DNA of 46,671 nt, taken from the NCBI GenBank assembly GCA_030877765.1, contig GCA_030877765.1_4853.1; one strand, 5' to 3'. The DNA is from a phage. Below, piece by piece: positions 27,051-33,777 of this stretch. Within the stretch, counting starts at the first letter, position 1, and every line of letters starts with the position of its first letter. The translations under genes and the position numbers were made by a program. The notes under the pieces are model-generated. The model had not been told where the DNA came from, ran no database searches, and worked only from the letters and a program-made list of their open reading frames with translations.

Positions 27051-27208
27051 TTTAATCAGGAGGTAGCCCATGAACACAATCCCTATCACCTACTTTCTCA
27101 CGCTATACGCACTCACCAATTCGCCATTGTTTGCACTGGCTACCGCCTCGTGGTGCTATATCTCCCTGTGTTATAATTCGACCACAAACTAACCGTGGAG
27201 AGTTAACC

Positions 27209-29091
<1,883 letters not shown>

Positions 29092-29102: not shown

Positions 29103-30176
29103 ATGGAAAAGATTATTTTTACCAAAGACTTGGTAGCCAACTCCGCAGTGGTGGCTGACCAGTGGAAACATCTCACCATCGACCGCAAGGTGTTCTGCAA
29201 TGCAGAAGCTGAACTGGCGAAAACATACGGTGTTAACGCCACCGCGCTGGTAACGAAAGATTACTGGCGCGACGTGGATAACGTCACCACCCGTGTTTTC
29301 CGCAACGAAGCTGGCCAGGACATGATGGCTGACCTGATGGGTATCGCGGCAAACATTAACATTGGTAAGACTGTGGCAATCAGCCGCATTGCTTCCGATG
29401 CTGGCAAGGTAGTCCGCACTCTGTCTGGTCAGGAGCCGGAAGACTTGGATAAAACTCGCTACGATTACACTGGCGACGTGATTCCAATCTTCAAAACTGG
29501 CTACAGCCGCGAATGGCGCGAACTGCTGGGTATGCAGTCTGAAGGTTTTGACCCCCTGCTGGACGATCAGGCTAACGTCACCTTTAACCTACGTTCCGAC
29601 ATGGCGCAGTATCTGCTGACCGGCGACCAGACTCTGAACGTGAACGGCGTTTACACTGGCTACGGTATCACCAACCACCCGAACACCATTCAGGTCAACC
29701 TGAACATTCACGATGGCGGCCTGAATATCGACCTGCAAACCGCAACGCCAGATGAAATCGTGAAATTCTTCAATCAGGATTTCCAGGCTATTCTGGATGC
29801 GCAGAACGTATTTGAGCAGGTGACTCTGTGGGTTTCCCCGGCAGTGCGTCGCAGTTTCATGCGTCCGTATTCTAATGCGGCTGGCTTCAAAGGCGGCACG
29901 GTTGAGCAGTACATCACGCAGTTCGGTAATGGTCGCATTGGTAAGATTGGCACCAACTTCCTGCTGACTGGCAACCATTTCGTTGGTTACGTTCGCAATG
30001 ACATGTACATCCGTCCGCGTGTTGCTCAGCCTGTCTCCACCTATGCGGCAGCTCGCACCAACCCGCACGATAACTTTAACTTCCTCGTATGGTCTGCTTT
30101 CGGTCTGCAGATTCGCAAGGATGCCGCTGGAAAAAGCCGCGTCTTTAATGGCTATGGTAGCCAGGAAGCTAAATAA
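29103..30176 (+). CDS. Major capsid protein
   Basis: 357 aa, strong RBS, followed by a strong terminator; lambda E-like position and size. Confidence 0.65.
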   Translation: MEKIIFTKDLVANSAVVADQWKHLTIDRKVFCNAEAELAKTYGVNATALVTKDYWRDVDNVTTRVFRNEAGQDMMADLMGIAANINIGKTVAISRIASDAGKVVRTLSGQEPEDLDKTRYDYTGDVIPIFKTGYSREWRELLGMQSEGFDPLLDDQANVTFNLRSDMAQYLLTGDQTLNVNGVYTGYGITNHPNTIQVNLNIHDGGLNIDLQTATPDEIVKFFNQDFQAILDAQNVFEQVTLWVSPAVRRSFMRPYSNAAGFKGGTVEQYITQFGNGRIGKIGTNFLLTGNHFVGYVRNDMYIRPRVAQPVSTYAAARTNPHDNFNFLVWSAFGLQIRKDAAGKSRVFNGYGSQEAK

Positions 30177-30179
30177 TAA

Positions 30180-30205
30180 AAAAGGGGGTTTATCCCCCTT
30201 CTTTG
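30180..30205. terminator. Bidirectional terminator
   Basis: Stem aggggg/ccccct with T-runs on both strands; on the minus strand it overlaps the last codons of 30190-30996. Confidence 0.75.
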
Positions 30206-30996
30206 TATCTAATTTCACCGTAAACCATGTACTGTAACATGTAACAAAACTCCCATTCCGTCATATCTGTCCGTAGCCACTTCCTGTTCTTCTTGTAATT
30301 GTACTCCGCCAGCTCCGCTTTTAAATTGTGAAGAGCATTAACCAGTTCTGGATATACGAGGTTATTCTTAACAAACCAGTTGACAGATAAAATATGGTCA
30401 ATATGCCAATTATTGCGGTCATCAAAACTCATCCATGGAAGCATGGTTGATTTTATATGCTTAATGAAATCATCCTTTGAGTACCCGAGAACATCATCTA
30501 CTGTTCTATCAAGCGCAATGTCAGATACTCTCATATCAAGCCGCTCAAGCATTTTTCTTAGGAACACGTGGTGTGGGTGCTTCTTTTGCCATTGCCTGAC
30601 ATTATCCAGAGCCTTTTTATTGCCTTTCTCTGAGTAGTACCATCTGCGATAAGCTTCCCTTTTCTTTTGTAAAAACTCCTCCTTTTTCTCTGGATTCTCG
30701 TTAAGCCTTTGCATCTTCCTTTTGTTGTACTCCTGTTGTGATTGTTTTCTTTTCTTTTTGTACTCGCTGTTATCCTTGTTTTTCTGCCACTCCTTTTTTC
30801 TGTACTCACTTTCCTTGCGTTTGCGCTCCTCTGTTGTTCTCTGCTTCCTTGTTCTTTCGTATACGCAATGCTTGCATCCGCCTGATGCTGTAAAAAACAC
30901 AGTTCCACCACATACAGAGCATGGAATCCATTCACACACAAATTGCTTCAGTCCAGCAACCCTTGCTTCTTGCGCGGCTTCTTTTCTTGTTTTCAT
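30190..30996 (-). CDS. Zinc-ribbon, Lys/Glu-rich protein with C-terminal HNH-like motif
   Basis: N-terminal CEWIPCSVCGG...CKHC; long KRKE-rich middle; C-terminal NNWHIDHILSVNWF. Confidence 0.5.
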   Translation of the reverse strand: MKTRKEAAQEARVAGLKQFVCEWIPCSVCGGTVFFTASGGCKHCVYERTRKQRTTEERKRKESEYRKKEWQKNKDNSEYKKKRKQSQQEYNKRKMQRLNENPEKKEEFLQKKREAYRRWYYSEKGNKKALDNVRQWQKKHPHHVFLRKMLERLDMRVSDIALDRTVDDVLGYSKDDFIKHIKSTMLPWMSFDDRNNWHIDHILSVNWFVKNNLVYPELVNALHNLKAELAEYNYKKNRKWLRTDMTEWEFCYMLQYMVYGEIRYKEGG

Positions 30997-31082
30997 AAAG
31001 TCACTCCTAATTTGGTTTTATATTACCACGAGTGTAACTAGTGTGCTACAATTAACCAGCATTAACTCATGAGGATATTTAA

Positions 31083-31280
31083 ATGGCTAAATACGAAGTG
31101 ATTGCGCGAGGCATCTTTGTCAAAGAAAAAGGCAAGATTCGTGAGTTGCAGCTTGGCGAGGTGATTACCGAACCTGCTGATCATCTGATGTCAAAGCTGC
31201 GCGTTATGCCAGAACTGGAAAAATCTTTCGAAGTCGCAACCCCGCAAGAAAAGACGACAAAGAAAAAGAAAGCAGAGTAA
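31083..31280 (+). CDS. Hypothetical protein (65 aa)
   Basis: Track ORF followed by a terminator. Confidence 0.45.
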   Translation: MAKYEVIARGIFVKEKGKIRELQLGEVITEPADHLMSKLRVMPELEKSFEVATPQEKTTKKKKAE

Positions 31281-31284
31281 ACTG

Positions 31285-31310
31285 AACCCGCATAATGCGG
31301 GTTTTTTATT
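31285..31310 (+). terminator. Rho-independent terminator
   Basis: Stem cccgc/gcggg, 5-nt loop, TTTTTTATT. Confidence 0.75.
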
Positions 31311-31320
31311 GGGGGTTTCT

Positions 31321-32139
31321 ATGGCTGTCAGGTACGAAATAAACACAACTCCGGCTGACGGAGAGGTTTTGCTTAGCGAAACCATGTCTGCGGACTGGTC
31401 AGCATTACAGGTGCAGATTGTGCCGCTAAATTCTTCCGGTGGCTATGTGCCATTAACAAGCGGGTCTGTTTACGTAATGGTATCGCCGTTTGCGTCTGGT
31501 GATTTCTGGATTGACGTCAACAATAATAATTATTATGGCGTAGCGCTGCGGCTGAAGGTGATCAAGTCCCAAATACCTGCTGGCATTGCATCTCTGAAAG
31601 TCCTTGTATGGCGAGCAGCTACATCAGTGCCATCAAGTCAGGTTGTGGCACAGTCCTATGCAGAGTTTGCTAACAAGCAAGGGAAGTTATTCACTGCGTC
31701 GCGCAGAGTAACTGATGTCGCTGGCAGCTCAAACCTTGACAGCATATTTATCACCGGAACAAAGCAGGTGATATTCAACCAGCGCATTATTGGTTACACG
31801 GGGAAAGGTGTTGTTGCATCAATCTATCGCGGCGCAGTTGCCACTGGCGGTACGACGGCAGAGATTAACAACCCAAACGACATAACGCCACAAGCAGCTA
31901 CGGCGCAGTTAATTACTGGCGCTACCGTGACAAACATCGGGCAGCTGACGGTGGCGGCAACATACAGTGAGGGTAACGCATCGAATCAGGGGCAGGGTAA
32001 CTCGCAGGCGAAGCTCGGCGAGCAGATTATCATGGCACCGAATACGACGTACTTACTTCGCATAACATCACTAGATACTGCGGCGCAGAATATCAATGCG
32101 TACGTTTCATGGTTTGAGGATGATACTTATCTGGCGTGA
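31321..32139 (+). CDS. Hypothetical (probably virion-associated) Thr/Ala/Gly-rich protein
   Basis: 273 aa from MAVRYEIN; flanked by terminators on both sides. Confidence 0.5.
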   Translation: MAVRYEINTTPADGEVLLSETMSADWSALQVQIVPLNSSGGYVPLTSGSVYVMVSPFASGDFWIDVNNNNYYGVALRLKVIKSQIPAGIASLKVLVWRAATSVPSSQVVAQSYAEFANKQGKLFTASRRVTDVAGSSNLDSIFITGTKQVIFNQRIIGYTGKGVVASIYRGAVATGGTTAEINNPNDITPQAATAQLITGATVTNIGQLTVAATYSEGNASNQGQGNSQAKLGEQIIMAPNTTYLLRITSLDTAAQNINAYVSWFEDDTYLA

Positions 32140-32145
32140 TAAAAG

Positions 32146-32170
32146 AAAAGCCCCGCAAGGGGCTTTTTAT
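32146..32170. terminator. Bidirectional terminator
   Basis: Stem agcccc/ggggct with gcaa loop; T-runs on both strands. Confidence 0.8.
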
Positions 32171-32172
32171 TG

Positions 32173-32709
32173 CTACAGACGCATAGGCATAACAACAATC
32201 TTCGCAGTCTCTCCAGATGGCGCACTAAGACAGCAAACAGCGGCATCTGTGTTTCCATTTAGTTCAAATTTAACGCAACAGAATCTTGGGTTAAACAGCT
32301 TTGCCACCTTCTCGATATCAACAAGGTAGCCAGCATTGAAGCCAATTTTCTCTGCAGGCAAGGTCTGATTCGGAATGACGCGATCAATATCAGGGAATCG
32401 ACCATCAATCTCTTCGCAGATACCTGCTCCAACCATCGCGCCGGCTTCATCATGATACGTTGCAATTTTCGACTTTGTATCAATGATGGCGTGCTCATAA
32501 CGCTTTGTTGGTGACTTGCCAATCTTGATGATTACATTTTCTGTCAGCTTATTGTCATGGTTGCCACCAATAAATGCGCGATGACCGTCAGTTGAGGCAA
32601 TGCGACCATCTTGCATAAAGCAAATACCATTCAGGTAGTAGCGCACATCATTGCGAGCCTGAAAGATTAATGCTGATTCAAGTAATAATTTGCTGATTTT
32701 TAGTTTCAT
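32173..32709 (-). CDS. Truncated DnaN-like sliding clamp (beta-clamp) fragment
   Basis: Blocks shared with E. coli DnaN as recalled: DVRYYLNG, TDGHR, DGRFPD, IGFN..Y.LD, C-terminal VVMPMRL. At 178 aa it is about half of a full clamp. Confidence 0.7.
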   Translation of the reverse strand: MKLKISKLLLESALIFQARNDVRYYLNGICFMQDGRIASTDGHRAFIGGNHDNKLTENVIIKIGKSPTKRYEHAIIDTKSKIATYHDEAGAMVGAGICEEIDGRFPDIDRVIPNQTLPAEKIGFNAGYLVDIEKVAKLFNPRFCCVKFELNGNTDAAVCCLSAPSGETAKIVVMPMRL

Positions 32710-32882
32710 CACTTCACCTTAATCATGTGTTGTTTTGCAACCTTCAGGCATTCTTCAAAAATGCCACCATTCTTTGCGCTCTGATTGCGCTTGTAATACT
32801 GAATTGCCGCATCAATTGCCATCTGGTCGATTTCAGGCAGTTTTGCGCGCAGCTGTTTTTCGATGAATTGTTCGGCGTTCAT
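32709..32882 (-). CDS. Small protein (57 aa)
   Basis: ATG 32882; stop overlaps the clamp-fragment start (TGATG); below track cutoff. Confidence 0.3.
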   Translation of the reverse strand: MNAEQFIEKQLRAKLPEIDQMAIDAAIQYYKRNQSAKNGGIFEECLKVAKQHMIKVK

Positions 32883-32967: not shown

Positions 32968-33777
32968 TCACATCTTCTCCAGAATTGCCATAACCTCGTG
33001 AATGTCAGCAACAGGAATCTGAATAAATTCCTCATCCTCTGCCACCACATGACCAGCAGGGAGAATTACATGGTCAGCTGGCTTCAGTAACTCAATCAGG
33101 CGGTCTACTGGCTTAATCTTTTTCGACTTCAGCACTTTGGCTGTGACCTTATCCTTGCCTTGCGCCTTCGCTTCTTCGACCGCTTCGTCGATAACTTTTA
33201 CCGCATCATCTCCATGTTCGCGCGTTACCGCTACGGCATTTGCATAGCTGATCTGTCCGGCACTGATTCGCGCTTTTACTTCCGCAGGCACATCACCCAA
33301 CGACAGGTGCATTTGCACGTCAGATACTGAGCGGCCTACCTTCTTGGCGATTTCCTCGTTTGTCCAGCCAAAACCTTTCAGACGCGTGTAAGCCTTTGCG
33401 CGTTCAAACGGGTCAAGTTGCTTGCCCTGACTTGATGACACCATGAATGCGATTTTGTCAGCCTCGTCGCCAGTAAAATCCTTACACTCAATGCGAACGA
33501 TTGGTGCGCCGCGCTCAATGGCTCGCAATGCGCCGAGGTAGCGATGCTGCCCATCAAGAATGCGGATACCTTTATCGTCAGGAATAACTGTTAATGCTGG
33601 CAATGGCTGACCTGACTCCCAGCACTGCGCGAAATATTCCACATGCTGCTCATCTGCTTCACGGATGTTGTATCCCGGCTCCAGATAGATTTGCTCTACT
33701 GGCACGAGGTAGGTTTTGTTAACAGCGATACCGTTACGCGTTTCTTTGTCTGAATAGATTTTGCTTAGTGTTTTCAT
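32968..33777 (-). CDS. ParB N-terminal domain (ParB/Srx-like) nuclease-type protein
   Basis: ILDGQHRYLGALRA motif; central HTH-like segment (EEIAKKVGRSVSDVQ). Confidence 0.7.
   Translation of the reverse strand: MKTLSKIYSDKETRNGIAVNKTYLVPVEQIYLEPGYNIREADEQHVEYFAQCWESGQPLPALTVIPDDKGIRILDGQHRYLGALRAIERGAPIVRIECKDFTGDEADKIAFMVSSSQGKQLDPFERAKAYTRLKGFGWTNEEIAKKVGRSVSDVQMHLSLGDVPAEVKARISAGQISYANAVAVTREHGDDAVKVIDEAVEEAKAQGKDKVTAKVLKSKKIKPVDRLIELLKPADHVILPAGHVVAEDEEFIQIPVADIHEVMAILEKM

What the first reader, a model, noticed from the sequence alone, without database searches (positions are those of the whole stretch)
31281..32170. Self-contained transcription unit flanked by two strong terminators
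The 273-aa Thr/Ala/Gly-rich protein (31321-32139) is insulated by terminators on both sides in the capsid region. It is probably an abundant decoration or fibre-like virion protein, or a moron.
Basis: inference. Interest (0 to 1): 0.4.

Follow-up and report, generated by a model that had tools for sequence, protein, structure and literature searches.

The report
Optional phage late-gene cassette between terminators
This is a real 272-residue phage gene lying between two conserved terminator hairpins, but it has no promoter of its own; it is an optional add-on cassette that about two thirds of related phages lack, and it encodes a widespread two-domain beta-sandwich protein of unknown function that was detected in virion preparations of a close relative.

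Summary
An ORF at 31321-32139 (272 aa, not 273) lies between two strong hairpin-plus-T-tract terminators (31284-31310 and 32146-32171). Both are kept in all 40 relatives compared.

- The unit is not self-contained. Only 10 nt, holding the ribosome-binding site, separate the upstream T-tract from the ATG, so transcription must read through that terminator.
- Skatevirus relatives (VSt472, Bas80) join the upstream hairpin directly to the DNA that follows the downstream hairpin. Positions 31311-32171 are therefore a precise, promoterless presence/absence cassette.
- The capsid gene is found in 206 phage records, this gene in only 64.

The protein belongs to PHROG 5335 (function unknown, no Pfam family). 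It is spread across siphophages, myophages and podophages, always among late genes.
- AlphaFold2 predicts two compact beta-sandwich domains, not a fibre.
- Its 80%-identical Sf11 homologue (gp68, 30 kDa) was detected by virion mass spectrometry but not seen in the 3.4 A capsid map.
- The N-terminal domain has been swapped by recombination. The C-terminal jelly-roll domain is more conserved than the capsid protein in the more distant relatives.

Best reading: a dispensable, low-copy or flexibly attached virion accessory protein. Interest is modest.

The parts
31023..31052 (+). Promoter-like site (TTACCA, 18-nt spacer, TACAAT, preceded by TG, i.e. an extended -10) upstream of orf65. It is the probable start of the orf65-orf272 transcript in this genome.
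   Evidence: Consensus scan, 9 of 12 matches plus TG. An equivalent TGnTATAAT or TGnTACAAT element is kept in all 11 relatives that carry the HNH insertion, although those cassettes are only about 60% identical. Function is inferred, not shown.
31083..31280 (+). orf65: a 65-aa protein with a Lys-rich C-terminus (PHROG 2138, unknown function). It is the gene directly upstream and is present in relatives whether or not they carry the cassette.
31284..31310 (+). Intrinsic-terminator-like hairpin (31284-31304) with T-tract TTTTTTATT (31302-31310). It ends the orf65 transcript and must be read through for orf272 to be expressed. In cassette-less relatives it is the only hairpin between orf65 and the convergent gene.
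   Evidence: -13 kcal/mol, z = -2.75; stem nearly invariant, 5 loop variants.
31311..32171 (+). Presence/absence cassette of 861 nt: ribosome-binding site GGGGG, ORF, hairpin and T-tract. It is bounded by the 8-nt repeat TTTTTATT (31303-31310 and 32164-32171) and contains no promoter.
   Evidence: Junctions in VSt472 and Bas80 read ...GCGGGTTTTTTATT|GCTACAGACGCAT..., i.e. the upstream hairpin joined to the DNA that follows the downstream hairpin in the window.
31321..31620 (+). N-terminal beta-sandwich domain (residues 1-100), followed by a low-confidence linker (residues about 101-110, 31621-31650). It is an exchangeable module with no sequence family.
   Evidence: AlphaFold2 pLDDT is about 83-94 for residues 1-100 and below 50 for 102-109. 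The domain is 92-95% identical to a lineage whose capsid protein is 78% identical, but 68-70% identical to the Sf11 lineage whose capsid protein is 95-98% identical. The nucleotide breakpoint lies at about codon 115-125. No PHROG or PDB match and no relation to the C-terminal domain.
31651..32139 (+). C-terminal jelly-roll beta-sandwich domain (residues about 111-272) plus stop codon. This is the PHROG 5335 domain, the conserved core of the family.
   Evidence: PHROG 5335, E = 4e-69. pLDDT is about 90. It stays 88-96% identical in all but one of the 41 relatives compared and has dN/dS 0.045. The family has 671 clusters at 50% identity.
32146..32171 (.). Bidirectional intrinsic-terminator-like hairpin (AAAAGCCCC-GCAA-GGGGCTTTT) with T-tract, between the convergent orf272 and the minus-strand 179-aa gene (32173-32712). 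It also marks a module junction.
   Evidence: -16.6 kcal/mol on +, -14.1 on -. The stem is nearly invariant with more than 10 loop variants, and homology to relatives breaks immediately 3' of it into at least 10 different continuations.

Best explanation
The ORF is the cargo of a promoterless accessory cassette (ribosome-binding site, gene, terminator; 31311-32171). The cassette sits just after the T-tract of the orf65 terminator, at the 3' end of the head-gene block. It is transcribed only by read-through of that leaky terminator. In this genome the transcript probably starts at the extended -10 promoter at 31023-31052. In relatives without the HNH insertion it comes from the late head operon. 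The expected result is a modest amount of protein late in infection.

The product is a dispensable virion-associated accessory protein of the PHROG 5335 family. It has a strongly constrained C-terminal jelly-roll domain, a flexible linker, and an N-terminal beta-sandwich domain that recombination swaps between phage lineages. I infer that it attaches to the particle in low copy number or flexibly, on the head or neck. I also infer that it acts as a non-essential surface adhesin or decoration rather than as a building block of the capsid lattice.

Shown here or in the literature:
- the anatomy of the cassette and its presence/absence among relatives;
- the conservation of both terminators;
- family membership and the predicted fold;
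- the domain mosaicism;
- mass-spectrometry detection of the Sf11 homologue.

Inferred: read-through expression, the location on the virion, and any binding function.
For: **Anatomy**
- Only 10 nt, holding the ribosome-binding site, lie between the T-tract and the ATG, and no promoter-like site is found.
- The same arrangement occurs in Sf11. There the capsid gene, a hairpin, orf65, the terminator and gp68 follow one another with no promoter-like site.

**Dispensability**
- VSt472 and Bas80 lack exactly 31311-32171.
- The capsid gene is found in 206 phage records, the target gene in 64. A protein-level search gives the same 8 Salmonella records.
- The Jedunavirus MMNM/MEW1 lacks the KpV79 gp18 homologue but keeps the flanking genes.

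**Virion association**
- Sf11 gp68 (30 kDa) appears in the virion mass-spectrometry table and is 80% identical to the window protein.

**Late or structural gene context in unrelated phages**
- It lies directly after the capsid gene in phages with three different capsid-protein PHROGs (771, 247, 267) and in KpV79.
- It lies between the portal and the protease in AeroV_348, and within the XM1 head-gene cluster, two genes upstream of the decoration protein gp53.
- All of these are sequence-level homologues, E <= 1e-42.

**Protein properties**
- Two compact beta-sandwich domains are predicted.
- Across 144 diverse members only glycines, one Asn and one Glu are nearly invariant, with no catalytic-looking residues.
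- The C-terminal domain has dN/dS 0.045 and is more conserved than the capsid, decoration and protease proteins in the more distant lineage. The N-terminal domain has been exchanged independently of the capsid genes.
Against: - The homologue was not seen in the Sf11 3.4 A icosahedral capsid map or in the tail maps. XM1 gp51 is not mentioned in the XM1 virion structure paper.
- The Sf11 mass-spectrometry list also contains proteins not expected in mature virions: the 52-kDa scaffold/protease-like gp64 and the DUF1353 protein gp52. Co-purification of an abundant late protein therefore cannot be excluded.
- The gene also occurs outside head modules: after lysis genes (LIMEzero ORF57, a Dickeya prophage, KpnP_VR7901-like contigs) and after tail or baseplate genes.
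- The conserved domain is shared by phages with unrelated capsids. That is odd for a lattice-specific anchor.
- No binding partner or ligand has been tested.
Confidence: 0.45

Rival explanations
1. XepA/YomS-like late protein. On this view it is a soluble, non-structural oligomeric beta-sandwich protein made late, which acts on the host envelope at or after lysis. Its detection in virion preparations would be carry-over.
For: - The overall plan is the same: about 275 aa, two beta-sandwich domains and a linker. Short forms with only the C-terminal domain exist (170-200 aa), as YomS does for XepA.
- Homologues lie right after lysis genes in LIMEzero (ORF57), in a Dickeya prophage (after the Rz-like gene) and in KpnP_VR7901/CVT22-like phages.
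Against: - No sequence similarity is found, even with a 144-sequence profile against all PDB chains.
- Most contexts are head modules, not lysis cassettes.
- The function of XepA itself is only proposed.
Confidence: 0.15
2. Classical moron: an autonomously expressed host-modifying gene, for example for exclusion or fitness.
For: - It is a precise presence/absence insertion between genes that are adjacent in relatives, and it carries its own terminator.
- Its presence is skewed by host genus: Klebsiella 35 of 47 records, Escherichia 12 of 20, Salmonella 8 of 128.
Against: - There is no promoter in the cassette.
- G+C is 0.497 against 0.466 for the window, which is not clearly foreign.
- The relatives with characterised isolates are described as lytic or virulent (paper titles), so a prophage-expressed role would not apply; I did not search this window for lysogeny genes.
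- The product is found in Sf11 virion preparations.
- The family always lies among late structural or lysis genes.
Confidence: 0.1
3. Protein packaged inside the capsid or located next to the portal (internal or ejected). It would be invisible to symmetric reconstructions, and the variable domain would be evolving against host factors.
For: - It is detected by mass spectrometry but absent from symmetrised maps of Sf11.
- It lies next to the portal or the gene upstream of the scaffold in AeroV_348 and XM1.
- The Sf11 neck region could not be resolved.
Against: - Two rigid beta-sandwich domains are atypical for ejected proteins. This rests on general knowledge and was not tested here.
- The gene is dispensable in many close relatives.
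- No evidence of N-terminal processing is available.
Confidence: 0.1
4. Head-assembly factor (scaffold-like or chaperone) that is not part of the final particle.
For: It is embedded in head-morphogenesis modules in several phage groups.
Against: - It is absent from about two thirds of phages with about 93% identical capsid genes. It is also absent from MMNM, whose capsid protein is 92% identical to that of KpV79. It therefore cannot be required for assembly.
- Its position is variable, including after lysis and tail genes.
Confidence: 0.05

Closest known systems
Shigella phage Sf11 gp68 (RefSeq KGB36_gp68, YP_010053081.1; GenBank note 'gp37')
   Same: It is an orthologue, 80% identical over the full length. 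It has the same position after the capsid gene and orf65, and the same two hairpins. It was detected by mass spectrometry of purified virions.
   Different: Its N-terminal domain is only about 70% identical and its linker is 10 aa longer. Sf11 lacks the HNH insertion between the capsid gene and orf65. Function and location are unknown there too.
PHROG 5335 (unknown function), e.g. KpV79 gp18, XM1 gp51, LIMEzero ORF57, Bcep43 gp01, CVT22 hypothetical protein
   Same: They share the C-terminal jelly-roll domain at the sequence level (E from 1e-42 to 1e-69). All are late-gene neighbours.
   Different: Many members have the C-terminal domain only (170-200 aa). N-terminal domains are unrelated between lineages. 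Genomic positions differ: head, tail or lysis modules.
XepA / YomS of Bacillus prophages PBSX and SPbeta (PDB 6i56, 6i5o)
   Different: There is no detectable sequence similarity. The rmsd is high, and the score is barely above generic jelly rolls. The C-terminal domain here is about 165 aa, against 112 for YomS. Pentamer formation and cytotoxicity were not tested. The hosts are Gram-negative.
Non-essential capsid decoration or adhesin proteins (T4 Hoc, T5 pb10; the HFTV1 turret proteins as a structural example)
   Different: The fold is different: it is not Ig-like, beta-tulip or OB. No lattice position has been observed in Sf11. Here the N-terminal domain is the swapped one and the C-terminal domain the conserved one. 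The comparison with Hoc and pb10 rests on general knowledge, not on a test made here.
Attenuating terminator downstream of the major capsid gene (T7 T-phi design; terminators annotated after the capsid gene in KpV79 and LIMEzero)
   Same: Intrinsic terminators are placed after highly expressed head genes, so downstream cistrons depend on read-through. The T7 case is established knowledge.
   Different: Here two or three successive hairpins occur: after the capsid gene, after orf65 and after orf272. The last cistron is an optional cassette. Termination efficiency has not been measured.

Membership tests
Intrinsic (Rho-independent) terminators | G+C-rich stem-loop immediately followed by a U/T-tract | tested here: met
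   Upstream: 9 pairs, 5 of them G-C, then TTTTTTATT. Downstream: GCCCC/GGGGC core extended by A-U pairs, then TTTTTATT. Energies are -13.0 and -16.6 kcal/mol, z = -2.75 and -4.29.
Intrinsic (Rho-independent) terminators | Conservation of the structure in relatives | tested here: met
   Both hairpins occur in all 40 relatives compared. Stems are nearly invariant and loops vary. No compensatory changes are seen, so the support comes from conservation rather than covariation.
Intrinsic (Rho-independent) terminators | Termination of transcription in vivo, and its efficiency | not testable with these tools
   This needs Term-seq or a reporter assay.
Moron (autonomous extra gene, in the sense used for lambdoid phages) | Present or absent between genes that are adjacent in related phages | tested here: met
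   VSt472 and Bas80 lack exactly 31311-32171. 64 records carry the gene against 206 that carry the capsid gene.
Moron (autonomous extra gene, in the sense used for lambdoid phages) | Own promoter upstream of the gene | tested here: not met
   10 nt separate the T-tract from the ATG and no promoter-like site is found. The loop hexamer CATAAT is not conserved in relatives.
Moron (autonomous extra gene, in the sense used for lambdoid phages) | Own terminator downstream | tested here: met
   The hairpin at 32146-32171 belongs to the cassette.
Moron (autonomous extra gene, in the sense used for lambdoid phages) | Deviant nucleotide composition | tested here: inconclusive
   G+C is 0.497 against 0.466 for the window.
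PHROG 5335 | Significant match to the family profile | tested here: met
   E = 4.4e-69 over residues 102-271. All 144 diverse relatives also match it.
XepA/YomS | Sequence homology | tested here: not met
   Neither the single sequence nor the 144-sequence profile matches any PDB chain at E <= 1; the only two matches, at E = 2, are a ribosomal protein. There is no Pfam match.
XepA/YomS | Two beta-sandwich domains joined by a linker, with XepA as the closest fold | tested here: inconclusive
XepA/YomS | Pentameric dumbbell assembly and cytotoxicity | not testable with these tools
   No multimer prediction or experiment was available.
Capsid decoration (cement) proteins | Presence in purified virions | not tested
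   The only evidence is from the literature, for the 80%-identical Sf11 gp68. Nothing is known for this phage.
Capsid decoration (cement) proteins | Ordered density at symmetric positions of the capsid lattice | not tested
   From the literature: the Sf11 3.4 A icosahedral map is accounted for by the capsid protein plus gp40. XM1 gp51 is not mentioned in the XM1 structure paper. As far as those maps go, the feature is not met.
Capsid decoration (cement) proteins | Known decoration fold (beta-tulip, Ig-like, OB) | tested here: not met
Tail fibre / receptor-binding protein | Fibrous or trimeric repeat architecture, location in the tail module, conserved N-terminal anchor with a variable C-terminus | tested here: not met
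   The model is globular. In this phage the gene lies in the head block. The polarity is reversed: the N-terminal domain varies and the C-terminal domain is conserved. A few distant homologues do follow tail genes.

The most novel reading that the evidence does not exclude
PHROG 5335 may be a previously unrecognised, very widespread class of optional virion accessory proteins. Members would share a conserved jelly-roll domain with a swappable N-terminal domain, be carried as promoterless terminator-to-terminator cassettes, and occur across siphophages, myophages and podophages, with structural look-alikes in haloarchaeal tailed viruses. The family may also be the counterpart, in phages of Gram-negative bacteria, of the XepA/YomS long-form and short-form pair. 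If so, it would give that orphan Bacillus family a general role.
Probability: 0.15. Interest if true: 0.55.

Novelty: new member of a known kind. Interest (0 to 1): 0.33.

Why it matters
For this window the result is mostly a clarification. The 'insulated unit' is an optional, promoterless cassette at the end of the head-gene block. It is not an autonomous operon and not a major capsid component.

More broadly, it marks out a large family: 671 clusters at 50% identity, with no Pfam family and no solved structure. The family always sits among late genes. Its core domain is under stronger constraint than the capsid protein in the more distant relatives compared. It is dispensable, and it has been detected in one virion proteome without being located on the particle.

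Natural pairs of phages with and without the cassette (Sf11 or this phage against Skatevirus VSt472 and Bas80) make a clean genetic system. They could be used to ask what such accessory virion proteins contribute, for example to adsorption, stability or host range. The skewed presence in Klebsiella and Escherichia phages compared with Salmonella phages suggests a host-dependent benefit.

Tried and rejected
- **Own promoter between the terminators.** None was found by the scan. The CATAAT in the hairpin loop is absent from the variant hairpin (loop AAACAA) of 23 of the 40 relatives compared. Rejected.
- **A conserved two-gene module with the small upstream ORF.** Small ORFs precede the gene in many phages but are not homologous to each other by BLASTP. 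Rejected.
- **N- and C-terminal domains as an internal duplication.** hhalign probability is 0.24%. Rejected.
- **Sequence link to any solved structure.** The single sequence and the C-terminal and N-terminal domain profiles gave nothing meaningful.
- **Pfam.** There is no family for the window protein or for 141 of the 144 relatives scanned.
- **Rfam on 30000-32400.** Only sub-threshold hits that sit on terminator hairpins.
- **Literature.**
  - The XM1 structure paper does not mention gp51.
  - The LIMEzero proteome paper and the VP1 capsid paper (PDB 9in6 chain 'SHP') are not in the library.
  - The Jedunavirus proteome paper concerns MMNM, which turned out to lack the gene.
- **Fibre-like architecture.** Rejected on the AlphaFold2 models.
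Full report
**1. What is there**

The window is a siphophage genome about 99% identical, in this region, to Salmonella phage vB_SenS_ST1UNAM. It is related to Shigella phage Sf11 (Cedarrivervirus) and to Skatevirus phages.

The ORF at 31321-32139 (+) encodes 272 aa. It has a GGGGG ribosome-binding site at 31311-31315, and its N-terminus is conserved in homologues. The ORF follows the head genes:
- scaffold/protease-like protein, 27206-28624;
- beta-tulip-type decoration protein, 28624-29091;
- major capsid protein, 29103-30176.

Between the capsid gene and the ORF lie a minus-strand HNH-type endonuclease gene (30190-30996) and a 65-aa ORF (31083-31280).

The composition is moderately rich in A, T, S and V and poor in charged residues.

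**2. The two terminators are real**

Upstream there is a hairpin at 31284-31304 with T-tract TTTTTTATT at 31302-31310 (-13.0 kcal/mol, z = -2.75). Downstream there is a hairpin at 32146-32167 with TTTTTATT at 32164-32171 (-16.6 kcal/mol, z = -4.29). The downstream one also folds as a terminator on the minus strand, so it is bidirectional between convergent genes.

Both hairpins occur in all 40 relatives compared. The stems are nearly invariant and the loops vary, while the flanking coding sequence diverges. orf65, for example, falls to 62% identity. No Rfam family reaches its threshold in this region.

**3. It is not a self-contained transcription unit**

The upstream T-tract ends at 31310 and the ATG is at 31321. 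The 10 nt between them are the ribosome-binding site, and no promoter-like site is found there. The one -10-like hexamer (CATAAT) is the hairpin loop, and it is replaced by AAACAA in 23 of the 40 relatives compared.

In Sf11 the order is capsid gene, hairpin, orf65, terminator, gp68, bidirectional terminator, with no promoter-like site along the way. There the gene is the last cistron of the head block and depends on read-through. This is the same logic as the terminators annotated after the capsid gene in KpV79 and LIMEzero, and as T7 T-phi (established knowledge).

In this window the antisense HNH insertion and a bidirectional hairpin after the capsid gene (30178-30204) separate orf65 from the head genes. 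An extended -10 promoter-like site lies at 31023-31052. Its equivalent is kept in all 11 HNH-bearing relatives, although those HNH cassettes are only about 60% identical. The likely unit here is therefore:
- the promoter-like site at 31023-31052;
- orf65;
- the leaky terminator;
- orf272;
- the bidirectional terminator.

That transcription runs this way is inferred, not shown.

**4. It is a precise optional cassette**

Skatevirus VSt472 and E. coli phage Bas80 have capsid genes about 93% identical in nucleotide sequence to the window's. In both, orf65 and its hairpin run straight into the DNA that follows the downstream hairpin in the window...GCGGGTTTTTTATT|GCTACAGACGCAT.... The difference is exactly 31311-32171: ribosome-binding site, ORF, hairpin and T-tract. 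It is bounded by the 8-nt repeat TTTTTATT.

Across the phage collection the capsid gene is found in 206 records and the target gene in 64. These counts include duplicate RefSeq and GenBank records. By host genus:

| Host genus | Records with the gene | Records with the capsid gene |
|---|---|---|
| Klebsiella | 35 | 47 |
| Escherichia | 12 | 20 |
| Salmonella | 8 | 128 |

A protein-level search likewise finds only 8 Salmonella phage records.

Independently, the Jedunavirus MMNM/MEW1 lacks the KpV79 gp18 homologue. It keeps gp17, gp20, gp21 and a capsid protein 92% identical to that of KpV79. The gene is therefore dispensable.

**5. The protein**

It has no Pfam family and no sequence match to any solved structure. 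Residues 102-271 match PHROG 5335, a family of unknown function (E = 4e-69).

A profile search of 1.84 billion cluster representatives finds 671 clusters at E <= 1e-3. They fall into two length classes:
- about 170-200 aa, with the C-terminal domain only;
- about 265-305 aa, with a divergent N-terminal domain in front of the conserved C-terminal domain.

AlphaFold2 (pLDDT 87) predicts two compact beta-sandwich domains, residues 1-100 and about 110-272. They are joined by a low-confidence linker.

Foldseek against viral models finds dozens of uncharacterised phage proteins. Among them are Bcep43 gp01, CVT22, LIMEzero, and proteins of the haloarchaeal tailed viruses HRTV-4, HFTV1 and HGTV-1.

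In the 144-sequence alignment only glycines, one Asn and one Glu are nearly invariant. That points to a structural or binding protein rather than an enzyme. The N-terminal domain has no detectable relatives and is not a duplicate of the C-terminal domain.

**6. Virion association**

The Sf11 cryo-EM paper (PMC12724387) lists 'Hypothetical protein gp68, 30 kDa' among proteins identified by mass spectrometry of purified virions. It was not accounted for in any density map.

The paper's table mixes two numbering schemes. By molecular weight and product names, its gp42, gp52, gp64, gp68, gp77 and gp78 follow the RefSeq locus tags. Its gp68 is therefore KGB36_gp68 (282 aa), the 80%-identical orthologue of the window protein.

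Two caveats apply:
- The same list contains the scaffold/protease-like gp64 and a DUF1353 protein, so co-purification is possible.
- The 3.4 A icosahedral capsid map is explained by the capsid protein plus gp40, so the protein is not an abundant lattice decoration.

XM1 gp51, another homologue, is not mentioned in the XM1 virion structure paper.

**7. Genomic contexts elsewhere**

Homologues confirmed by the family profile (E <= 1e-42) or by tblastn lie in four kinds of place:
- directly after the capsid gene, in phages with three different capsid-protein PHROGs (771, 247, 267) and in KpV79;
- inside head modules: between the portal and the protease in AeroV_348, within the XM1 head-gene cluster two genes upstream of decoration protein gp53, and after a T7-type portal;
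- after lysis genes: LIMEzero ORF57 as the last gene of the genome, a Dickeya prophage between the Rz-like gene and the terminase, and KpnP_VR7901/CVT22-like phages;
- after tail or baseplate genes.

The neighbours are always late genes. In about half of the distinct contexts examined the gene is the last one on its strand before a convergent gene.

**8. Mosaic evolution**

The table gives amino-acid identity to the window protein or its neighbours.

| Compared lineage | Capsid protein | C-terminal domain | N-terminal domain |
|---|---|---|---|
| Sf11/C1/swi2/IME207 | 95-98% | 94-96% | 68-70% |
| Second lineage (L009-L030) | 78-79% | 88-91% | 92-95% |

In the second lineage orf65 is 59-65% identical.

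Sliding nucleotide identity and dS values place the breakpoint at about codons 115-125. Both domains are under purifying selection, with median dN/dS 0.08 for the N-terminal and 0.045 for the C-terminal domain. The window gene is thus a chimera. The N-terminal domain is exchanged independently of the capsid genes. In the second lineage the C-terminal domain is more conserved than the capsid, decoration and protease proteins.

Three metagenomic relatives carry the gene next to a capsid protein only 25% identical.

**9. Interpretation**

The best-supported reading (confidence about 0.45) is a dispensable, late-expressed virion accessory protein. It would be present in low copy number or flexibly attached, on the head or neck. 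It would act as a non-essential decoration or adhesin and be delivered as a promoterless cassette.

Rivals:
- an XepA/YomS-like non-structural late protein acting at the envelope (0.15);
- a classical moron (0.1);
- an internal or portal-proximal protein (0.1);
- an assembly factor (0.05).

'Virion protein' and 'moron-like' are each partly supported.

**10. Novelty**

An identical gene is already in GenBank as a hypothetical protein (ST1UNAM). The family exists as PHROG 5335, and the Sf11 paper already flagged the orthologue as an unplaced virion-associated protein. New here are:
- the cassette boundaries;
- the dependence on terminator read-through;
- the dispensability and its skew by host genus;
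- the breadth of the family;
- the domain swap.

None of this overturns expectations, so interest is modest.

Noticed in passing
window 30190-30996 (minus strand): An HNH/endonuclease VII-like gene (PHROG 1035) is inserted antisense between the capsid gene and orf65. The capsid-to-orf65 spacer is polymorphic among relatives: about 50 nt in most, about 395-438 nt in some, and 911 nt with the HNH gene in 11 loci plus ST1UNAM. The insertion is always at the same site, and the two HNH variants are only about 60% identical. It looks like a homing-endonuclease hotspot.
   Followed up: partly
window 31023-31052 and the equivalent positions in L013, L014, L020-L022, L028, L030, L031, L034: Every HNH-bearing genome has an extended -10 promoter-like element (TGnTACAAT or TGnTATAAT) pointing towards orf65. 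The mobile cassette seems to bring a replacement promoter for the genes it cuts off from the head operon.
   Followed up: partly
window 32172 onward; relatives L006-L044: Homology between relatives breaks immediately 3' of the downstream hairpin into at least 10 different continuations, so the terminator marks a recombination junction. The window also lacks the roughly 800-nt cytosine-methylase gene that ST1UNAM carries between the 57-aa ORF (32709-32882) and the ParB-like gene (32968-33777).
   Followed up: no
window 32173-32712 (minus strand); Bcep43 gp15 (L082 10407-10988): A 179-aa protein annotated either 'RusA-like resolvase' or 'DNA Pol III beta fragment' (PHROG 3007) sits antisense next to the head genes. 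It occurs both here and in the unrelated Burkholderia myophage Bcep43. This is an odd, recurring placement.
   Followed up: no
L037, L038, L044 (IMG/VR contigs): These relatives keep orf65 (its C-terminal part), the target gene and the scaffold/protease-like gene. However, their capsid protein is only 25% identical, and no decoration-protein match was found. This looks like a capsid-gene replacement inside an otherwise conserved block.
   Followed up: no
Sf11 paper PMC12724387, Table 1, compared with NC_054636.1 (L081): The mass-spectrometry table mixes GenBank-note numbers (gp39, gp40, gp62) with RefSeq locus-tag numbers (gp42, gp52, gp64, gp68, gp77, gp78). Identities have to be recovered from the molecular weights.
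   Followed up: yes
window 30178-30204: A further strong bidirectional hairpin lies directly after the capsid gene (-14.9 and -15.6 kcal/mol on the two strands). An analogous hairpin follows the capsid gene in Sf11 (L002 4964-4983).
   Followed up: partly
L056 5249-5611, L075 4685-5095, L003 5555-6001: In several distant phages the gene just upstream of the PHROG 5335 homologue encodes another small protein (120-148 aa) rich in Thr, Ala, Gly and Ser, with no homology between phages. These may be further unannotated virion accessory proteins.
   Followed up: no
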